64,000 bases of DNA, from assembly GCA_951406725.2 (NCBI GenBank), contig OX597834.1, forward strand, positions 22,382,001-22,446,000, in the 5' to 3' direction. Origin of the DNA: Octopus vulgaris. Lineage: Eukaryota. The notes below the pieces were generated by a model. That model was not told the DNA's origin, did not search any database, and saw nothing but the letters and a program-made list of their open reading frames with translations. Position 1 is the stretch's first letter, and each line of letters starts with the position of its first letter. Made by a program: the position numbers and the translations under genes. Of this stretch, positions 10,357 through 10,606 are shown piece after piece.

Positions 10357-10570
10357 AGAGTAAACATATAAATGTGAAACAAGGTGAGAAAAAAAGAGTA
10401 CTCAAATACCAGGGGTAGAGTAATATGCTTTATTTAAAAGCAGCAGAAATTCAACAAAACCTGTTACTTGGAGTTTCATGTTCCCGTTCGTCATATATAT
10501 ATATATATATATATATATGAAAAAACAAGTCAGGATAGAAAATGCTAAAATAATTTTATAAAGAACATTT

Positions 10571-10606
10571 CAGTACCGGTTTCAGTCATTGAGACCTTTT
10601 CAACTG
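10571..10606 (-). ncRNA. Hammerhead motif, U3-A8 core variant
   Basis: Minus strand: cag-TTGAAAA-ggtc(tcaat)gact-GAAA-ccgg-TA-ctg. Stems I and II pair, stem III is the palindrome ACCGGT. Confidence 0.6.

What the first reader, a model, noticed from the sequence alone, without database searches (positions are those of the whole stretch)
10461..10606. Two adjacent antisense hammerheads, one with the rare U3-A8 core
Seen on the minus strand: cag-TTGAAAA-ggtc(tcaat)gact-GAAA-ccgg-TA-ctg (10606-10571). About 80 nt further downstream on that strand is (a)TGACGA-acg(ggaa)cat-GAAA-ct(cca)ag-TA-acag (10493-10461), whose 5' stem is overwritten by (TA)n. Known: the C3-G8 tertiary pair of hammerheads can be replaced by U3-A8. 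Inference: UUGAAAA is a compensated variant rather than decay, and different ribozyme-bearing repeats accumulate in the same TA microsatellite.
Basis: partly seen in the sequence, partly recalled or inferred. Interest (0 to 1): 0.7.

Follow-up and report, generated by a model that had tools for sequence, protein, structure and literature searches.

The report
Two Penelope tails with variant hammerheads
Two unrelated, very abundant repeats, likely the cut-off tails of Penelope-type jumping genes, sit side by side in a TA microsatellite; each carries a predicted, untested self-cutting RNA motif, one of an already published variant (U3-A8) and one that is broken here but whose family mostly has C in place of a normally fixed core U.

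Summary
Both motifs are real at the stated coordinates. Motif A (10606-10571, minus strand) is an intact small type I hammerhead; 0 of 100 shuffles gave its layout. It belongs to a high-copy repeat (4,157 contigs in one run) in which neither U3 nor A8 shows a variant at 2% or more. So U3-A8 is inherited, not decay of this copy. U3-A8 is already published for Penelope-like element (PLE) hammerheads, including the same UUGAAAA core (PMC4209133).

Motif B is a truncated, damaged copy of a second, unrelated high-copy repeat. Other copies supply the missing stem I arm and show that most have C, not U, at core position 4. Its helices match Hydra-clade PLE hammerheads (PMC8557442, File S2), a clade known to insert in (TA)n.

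Both families end in (TA)n elsewhere, so adjacency likely reflects a shared target. The two motifs cannot pair with each other. No PLE ORF was linked and cleavage is untested. The scan noted U3-A8 and a C4 family before on other DNA of this genome.

The parts
10299..10354 (.). (TA)28 tract at the 3' end of element B
   Evidence: other copies of B also run into TA here (summed depth 107,620 in bin 10347-10352 in X1)
10355..10492 (-). Element B: 138-bp 5'-truncated 3' end of a high-copy repeat, likely a Hydra-type PLE
   Evidence: 3,762 / 4,106 / 2,902 / 1,431 contigs laid in X1 / X2 / X6 / X7; family continues beyond 10492
10461..10492 (-). Broken hammerhead B: G5-A9, weak stem II with GGAA loop, GAAA, helix III with a copy-specific G-to-A change at 10469, UA site 10466-10465, stem I 3' arm 10464-10461. 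Positions 3-4 and the 5' arm are missing in this copy; the family mostly has C3-C4
   Evidence: 10469 differs in 99% of depth in 4 of 4 runs
10493..10518 (.). (AT)13 tract between the two elements
10519..10759 (-). Element A: about 240-bp 5'-truncated 3' end of a second high-copy repeat, likely a PLE of unassigned clade
   Evidence: 4,157 / 4,745 / 2,499 / 361 contigs laid in X1 / X2 / X6 / X12; family continues beyond 10759; TA-rich loose ends before 10522-10523 in 4 of 4 runs
10571..10606 (-). Hammerhead A: intact small type I motif with U3-A8 core and palindromic helix III; predicted cleavage after 10574
10763..10779 (.). Short TA tract at the truncated 5' end of element A

Best explanation
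The locus holds two unrelated high-copy repeats in one TA microsatellite, likely the 5'-truncated tails of two Penelope-like retroelement families that inserted independently, each with a predicted, untested type I hammerhead: A intact with a family-wide U3-A8 core, B cut off inside its core and belonging to a likely Hydra-type family that mostly has C at position 4. Shown: the motifs, high copy number, fixed U3 and A8, the family's missing stem arm and C4, TA at the 3' ends, and head-to-head inverted junctions in other copies. Inferred mechanism: a PLE RT/GIY-YIG protein nicks (TA)n and copies the element RNA from its 3' end, usually stopping early, which leaves 140-240 bp tails with the hammerhead 55-110 nt from the end. 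In tandem full-length transcripts two like hammerheads would pair through the palindromic helix III and cut slowly. At this locus A has no partner, B is incomplete, the two helices III do not match each other, and both likely lie antisense to a + strand host gene, so these copies are probably inert.
For: High copy in 4 of 4 runs for each element. No variant at 2% or more at the 13 core positions of A. The 10596:10584 pair reads A or G against U or C (A 34-88%, C 9-31%, sums never above 100%, unphased), in keeping with A-U, G-U and G-C pairs. Constrained energies: A monomer +3.2, A-A double hammerhead -13.9 kcal/mol; A x B helix III duplex only -1.4. Opposite-strand joints: 6 of 15 shown for A, 6 of 6 for B, as described for PLE inverted 5'-truncated copies (PMC8557442 Fig. 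2 legend). B family: 4-bp CUGU/ACAG stem I, ACUC-N-GAGU helix III and A17 are the same as in Hydra-2_aMil; that helix III occurs in 5 of 26 Hydra rows of File S2; a Hydra family with (TA)n preference is listed for Octopus bimaculoides. A's UUGAAAA core equals that of the PLE-linked S. mansoni(4) motif, and its layout (no extra base, 4-bp stem II closed as A-U, 6-nt palindrome, A17) resembles the PLE-linked Marsupenaeus motif. B rarely has TA on its 5' side in other copies (summed depth 371 at 10497-10502 against about 1,000,000 in the body, X1), so A-TA-B is not a composite family.
Against: No RT or endonuclease was linked to either repeat: no genome is held, and none of the 150 longest of 258 ORF pieces scanned hit an RT or GIY-YIG family. 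Cleavage is untested. In a deep mutagenesis of a type III hammerhead only the G3-C8 swap rescued; all other single and double changes in the U-turn region were low (PMC9901934 passage), which argues for weak activity of both U3-A8 and C4. The outer stem I pair of A is broken in 2-19% of depth (10571). The unconstrained cofold minimum of A-A (-17.0) is a different fold from the double hammerhead (-13.9). A lacks the extra base after A9 and the G10.1-C11.1 pair of the min-HHR consensus in most copies. C4 rests on loose-end consensus rows (agreement 0.58-0.77), with 454 rows not shown. TA tracts are dense here (56 in 64 kb; 7.7% of random positions have one within 115 nt downstream), so TA adjacency alone is weak evidence.
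Confidence: 0.8

Rival explanations
1. One or both repeats are non-autonomous, retrozyme-like or SINE-like elements that carry a hammerhead and borrow PLE enzymes; no coding master exists for them.
For: Only non-coding tails were seen. A preprint argues that animal retrozymes derive from PLE pLTRs (10.64898/2026.07.22.740005, part 1 of 5 read). Beyond 10759 the A family continues into a simple (GAA)n-like run.
Against: No tandem unit here. The helices are of the short PLE type, not the canonical 6-bp helix I type. B matches hammerheads of coding Hydra elements. Both copies are 5'-truncated pieces of longer families.
Confidence: 0.12
2. The hammerhead fold is a vestige in these families: U3-A8 and C4 are tolerated drift in master elements that no longer need to cleave, and the fold is kept only by recent amplification. 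This can hold together with the PLE origin.
For: Absence of core variation in A is not significant (P 0.185). Low activity of such changes in mutagenesis. U4C 'considerably decreases activity in vitro' (PMC3088659). PLE min-HHRs cleave poorly even as dimers (PMC4209133). Hammerhead-free PLE clades amplify well (PMC8557442).
Against: U3-A8 needs two changes and recurs in unrelated families: two in this window (3 of 3 descriptor hits have a Watson-Crick 3:8 pair; shuffles give 0.02 paired and 0.025 unpaired per window) and in S. mansoni. U3-A8 ribozymes were reported active in vitro, and the U4C viroid variant stays infectious. The listed variants in the B family's motif fall at unpaired places (10470, 10460).
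Confidence: 0.3
3. A and B act together as a two-part double hammerhead, or as one composite mobile unit.
For: Same strand, cores 109 nt apart.
Against: Helices III are not complementary (-1.4 kcal/mol). B lacks positions 3-4 and stem I here. Other B copies do not continue into TA and A.
Confidence: 0.03
4. Both motifs are chance matches in AT-rich DNA.
For: No Rfam hit; monomer folding no better than shuffles.
Against: 0 of 100 shuffles for A. Other copies of B restore the complementary arm and the broken pair. Match to published PLE motifs.
Confidence: 0.01

Closest known systems
Minimal type I hammerheads of metazoan PLE pLTRs, U3-A8 variant (S. mansoni Cercyon; Cervera and De la Pena 2014, PMC4209133)
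   Same: Type I layout, short helix I, palindromic helix III needing a dimer, dispersed single truncated copies, and the same UUGAAAA core as S. mansoni(4).
   Different: A has a 6-nt palindrome rather than 4 nt, a 4-bp stem II, no extra base after A9, and mostly A-U or G-U at 10.1-11.1. No cephalopod term was found in that supplement. The link to an ORF is not shown here.
Hydra-clade PLE hammerheads (Craig et al. 2021, PMC8557442, File S2), closest Hydra-2_aMil and Hydra-2_aJap
   Same: For family B: CUGU/ACAG stem I, ACUC-N-GAGU helix III, A17, position about 110 nt from the 3' end, (TA)n targets.
   Different: All 26 Hydra rows have U4 (they were found with a canonical descriptor); family B mostly has C4. 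The listed octopus family Hydra-1_oBim has a different motif. Protein features of the clade could not be tested.
Natural U4C hammerhead variant of a viroid (cited in Perreault et al. 2011, PMC3088659)
   Same: C at core position 4 in a natural hammerhead.
   Different: There a variant of a viroid with reduced in vitro activity; here the majority state of a high-copy animal repeat.
Animal non-LTR retrozymes (PMC7229834, search listing only; bioRxiv 2026.07.22.740005, part 1 of 5)
   Same: Non-coding repeat with a type I hammerhead, likely mobilised by PLE enzymes.
   Different: Retrozymes are tandem units; these are single truncated tails of two families.

Membership tests
Type I hammerhead (motif A) | Core N3-UGA-N7-N8-A, GAAA, UH with a Watson-Crick 3:8 pair | tested here: met
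   U3-A8; no variant at 2% or more at 13 core positions in 4 of 4 runs
Type I hammerhead (motif A) | Helices I, II and III around the core | tested here: met
   3 bp, 4 bp, and a 6-nt palindrome; helix III stable only as a dimer
Type I hammerhead (motif B, this copy) | Complete core and helix I | tested here: not met
   Truncated at 10492/10493; helix III pair broken at 10469
Type I hammerhead (family of B) | C3-G8 pair and helices I and III | tested here: met
   Loose ends behind 10489 and 10492 give C3 and a 4-bp arm; G at 10469 in 99% of depth
Type I hammerhead (family of B) | U at position 4 | tested here: not met
   C4-type rows hold 222 contigs over 4 runs, the one U4-type row shown holds 13 (X6); 454 rows not shown. 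This departs from the canonical core but is a known natural variant
Type I hammerhead (both) | Self-cleavage after position 17 | not testable with these tools
   Needs an in vitro assay; contigs show no RNA ends
min-HHR consensus of Cervera and De la Pena 2014 | Extra base between 9 and 10.1 and a G10.1-C11.1 pair | tested here: not met
   A has no extra base; G-C is at most a minority (C at 10584 in 9-31%). Some PLE-linked motifs in their Fig. S3 also lack it
Penelope-like elements | RT plus GIY-YIG ORF upstream of the hammerhead tail | not testable with these tools
   No genome held; none in the window among 150 of 258 ORF pieces scanned
Penelope-like elements | Dispersed high-copy 5'-truncated copies with inverted junctions | tested here: met
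   Thousands of contigs; opposite-strand joints 6 of 15 shown (A) and 6 of 6 (B)
Penelope-like elements | Hammerhead within a pLTR of a partial tandem | not testable with these tools
   Needs full-length copies
Hydra clade (family of B) | Hammerhead near the 3' end with Hydra-type helices | tested here: met
   Same stem I, helix III arms and A17 as Hydra-2_aMil
Hydra clade (family of B) | Insertion into (TA)n | tested here: met
   TA on both sides here; other copies run into TA at the 3' end. Not unique to Hydra
Hydra clade (family of B) | RWK and DKT motifs in RT, CxCX5C linker, no CCHH in the endonuclease | not testable with these tools
   No ORF available (features)
Non-LTR retrozymes | Tandem units each with a hammerhead | tested here: not met
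   No tandem or second copy of A or B in the window; other loci not examined

The most novel reading that the evidence does not exclude
A Hydra-type Penelope-like family has spread to thousands of copies with C in place of the near-invariant U4 of the hammerhead U-turn, while keeping all helices. Either this C4 core cleaves as a dimer, or PLE amplification does not need cleavage. Together with the U3-A8 families in the same genome, it gives a natural series of core variants for testing what PLE hammerheads are for.
Probability: 0.5. Interest if true: 0.5.

Novelty: new member of a known kind. Interest (0 to 1): 0.3.

Why it matters
The headline feature, U3-A8, is published, and PLE tails in (TA)n are published, so the locus is an ordinary transposon remnant. 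The useful residue is the C4 core of the second family. The role of PLE hammerheads is still unclear (PMC8557442). A successful family with a core change that lowers activity in vitro is a direct test of whether cleavage is needed. It also shows that searches fixed on CUGANGA miss whole families.

Tried and rejected
Whole-genome search: no genome is held, so the proposed genome-wide count was replaced by laying assembled contigs of public runs. These give unphased, depth-weighted letters and no copy number.

Rfam: only a degenerate 5S rRNA at gathering score; only TA-driven and other sub-threshold matches locally.

Metagenome scan for the A layout: 2 loci, both inside a 409-aa bacterial-type ORF (shown for L002; L001 has the same sequence at the match) and without stem II; rejected as chance.

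No RNA holder listed in the run search; X12 is only guessed to be RNA, so nothing is claimed on expression.

No second copy of A or B in the window by blastn or nhmmer. Sequence look-ups in earlier scan notes: 0 hits for either element, and none near this place.

Family A's motif strings were not found among the consensus sequences of PMC8557442 (0 hits for two strings), so A's clade is unassigned.

Literature on C4: searches returned the viroid mention (PMC3088659) and a CYGANGA descriptor for deep-sea viromes (PMC13481778), and no PLE family with C4. Lünse et al. 2017 on PLE hammerhead variants and Hammann et al. 2012 were not available and may already list it.

The family letter at 10486 (stem II of B) could not be resolved. 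The order of the two insertions could not be determined.

Full report
**Observation.** Motif A reads on the minus strand as a type I hammerhead: 3-bp stem I, core U3 (10603) to A9 with A8 at 10598, 4-bp stem II, GAAA, the palindrome ACCGGU, and UA at 10575-10574. Its full layout arose in 0 of 100 block-wise dinucleotide shuffles of the window. Motif B, 78 nt on, fails the descriptor: it has no 5' stem arm and one mismatch each in stem II and helix III. Rfam recognises neither, and neither folds better than shuffles as a monomer.

**Setting.** The window is AT-rich, microsatellite-dense animal DNA. That it is octopus-like is an inference from recalled repeat types and from earlier scan notes, not from a call of mine. 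On the minus strand the order is short TA tract, element A (10759-10519), (AT)13, element B (10492-10355), (TA)28. A and B share no real similarity, and neither has a second copy in the window. Pfam finds pieces of a NAV1-like AAA+ protein on the + strand at 31813-32160 and 50622-51092, with weaker AAA-type hits at 27436-27723 (150 of 258 ORF pieces scanned). The two elements may therefore lie antisense in an upstream intron; that the gene reaches 10.5 kb is not shown.

**Family A.** No genome is held, so I laid assembled contigs of public runs at 80% likeness. Element A drew 4,157, 4,745, 2,499 and 361 contigs in X1, X2, X6 and X12: a high-copy family, though the tool gives no copy number. 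Of 244 positions, 29 show another letter at 2% or more; none is among the 13 core positions, including U3 and A8. So U3-A8 is the inherited state and not decay of this copy. It does not prove selection: 0 of 13 has a chance of 0.185, and two fixed positions cannot show covariation.

The first stem II pair varies on both sides (A at 10596 in 34-88%, C at 10584 in 9-31%). This fits A-U, G-U and G-C forms but is unphased. Against a strict fold, the outer stem I pair is broken in 2-19% of depth. Loose ends show TA-rich sequence at the 3' end in 4 of 4 runs and a continuation beyond 10759 in 3 of 4, so this copy is 5'-truncated. Six of 15 listed joints join opposite strands.

**Family B.** Element B drew 3,762, 4,106, 2,902 and 1,431 contigs in X1, X2, X6 and X7. 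At 10469 the family has G in 99% of depth; this restores a 4-bp helix III around one unpaired base, so the window's A is a private CpG-type change. Loose ends behind 10489 and 10492 in 4 of 4 runs supply the missing arm, which pairs with 10464-10461. They also give C at position 3 and C at position 4. Rows of this type hold 222 contigs (75, 80, 44, 23); the one U4-type row shown holds 13 (X6); 454 rows were not shown and row agreement is 0.58-0.77.

C4-G5 is a CpG, so decay would turn C4 into U4 and not the reverse; a C4 majority points to the master element (inference). Other copies run into TA at the 3' end but almost never on the 5' side (summed depth 107,620 against 371 in X1), so A-TA-B is not a composite family. 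All 6 listed joints are opposite-strand.

**How it likely works.** Inferred from PLE biology: the element's RT and GIY-YIG endonuclease prime at (TA)n and copy from the 3' end, often stopping early or inverting. This leaves short tails with the hammerhead 55-110 nt from the end. The palindromic helix III is unstable in a monomer (+3.2 kcal/mol) and stable in a like-with-like double hammerhead (-13.9), although the unconstrained cofold minimum is another fold (-17.0). A and B cannot partner each other (-1.4). Both copies span their predicted cut site, so their templates were uncut or rejoined. At this locus the motifs are probably inert. TA tracts are dense here, so two TA-targeting families meeting in one tract needs no special cause.

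**What is known.** Cervera and De la Pena 2014 (PMC4209133; main text parts 1-3 of 4 and supplement parts 1-2 of 3 read) report U3-A8 in S. mansoni PLE hammerheads, about 1,300 hits. Their S. mansoni(4) motif has the same UUGAAAA core, and dimers cleave only weakly. Perreault et al. 2011 (PMC3088659, passages) report natural U3-A8, say it was shown active in vitro, and cite a viroid U4C variant with much lower in vitro activity that remains infectious. Roberts et al. 2023 (PMC9901934, passages; authors' name recalled) found that in their type III construct only G3-C8 rescued, a point against strong activity of either variant.

Craig et al. 2021 (PMC8557442; passages, section 11, supplement parts 2 and 53 of 59 and searches) describe the Hydra clade, which inserts in (TA)n and includes an Octopus bimaculoides family. 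Hydra-2_aMil has the same stem I, helix III arms and A17 as family B; 5 of 26 Hydra rows share that helix III; all 26 have U4, but they were found with a canonical descriptor. PLE families are annotated in Octopus vulgaris, and that paper does not mention ribozymes (PMC13282606, passages). I also saw passages of PMC6765202 and PMC13481778, and part 1 of 5 of bioRxiv 2026.07.22.740005. My searches found no PLE family with C4, but Lünse et al. 2017 was not available and may cover it.

**Membership versus likeness.** A works like a PLE dimer-type hammerhead and meets the structural tests, except the extra base and G10.1-C11.1 of the min-HHR consensus. Family B looks like a Hydra-clade hammerhead with U4C. 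PLE membership rests on non-coding signs; the defining ORF could not be tested.

**Other motifs in the window.** A relaxed scan finds 3 hits, all with a Watson-Crick 3:8 pair: A, a C3-G8 motif at 6690-6724 and a second U3-A8 motif at 55081-55045 unrelated to A. Shuffles give 0.02 paired and 0.025 unpaired per window. Three hits are few, but they agree with compensation across families.

**Earlier scan notes** (unchecked AI notes). U3-A8 PLE-type motifs were noted on other pieces of this genome (e1-9849011, e1-9936641), and a TA-flanked family fixed for C4 (e1-9580071). That last note pointed me to the Hydra table, which I then read myself. I had seen C4 before reading it. In this genome, 731 of 1,584 notes fit the word hammerhead.

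**Verdict.** Real, well explained, mostly known. U3-A8 is a published variant and the locus is a pair of transposon remnants. The C4 majority in a likely Hydra-type family is the only part that may be new and is worth a cleavage assay. Interest 0.3.

Noticed in passing
window 6615-6825 (+), motif 6690-6724: A canonical C3-G8 minimal hammerhead (extra A, G10.1-C11.1) in a roughly 210-bp TA-flanked insert, 106 nt before a (TA)27 tract; likely a third PLE tail.
   Followed up: partly
window 55081-55045 (-), within 54950-55157: A second U3-A8 minimal hammerhead with a 6-bp stem II, unrelated in sequence to A, in the middle of an imperfect inverted repeat; no TA tract nearby downstream.
   Followed up: partly
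window 27436-27723, 31813-32160, 50622-51092 (+): Pieces of a NAV1-like AAA+ protein gene on the + strand (Pfam AAA_lid_NAV1, E 3e-15 and 1.6e-06; weak AAA hits at 27.5 kb).
   Followed up: no
window 11520-11564 (+): A 45-nt exon-like stretch between a pyrimidine-rich AG and GT, seen by eye; it may place the elements in an intron of the + strand gene. Untested.
   Followed up: no
window 56677-56795 (-): Degenerate 5S rRNA copy, 52.4 bits with many broken pairs; likely a pseudogene or 5S-derived repeat.
   Followed up: no
window 33306-33530 (+), arms 33037-33132 and 33456-33551: Mariner-type transposase fragment (Pfam Transposase_1, E 3.8e-14) overlapping a 96-nt inverted repeat pair.
   Followed up: no
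family of element A, beyond window 10605 and 10759: Loose ends show a subfamily with about four extra letters next to stem I, and a (GAA)n-like run in the family's upstream continuation.
   Followed up: no
family of element B, behind window 10438 and 10493: A diverged relative with a different helix III region, and signs that stem I extends by about five more pairs past one mismatch.
   Followed up: no
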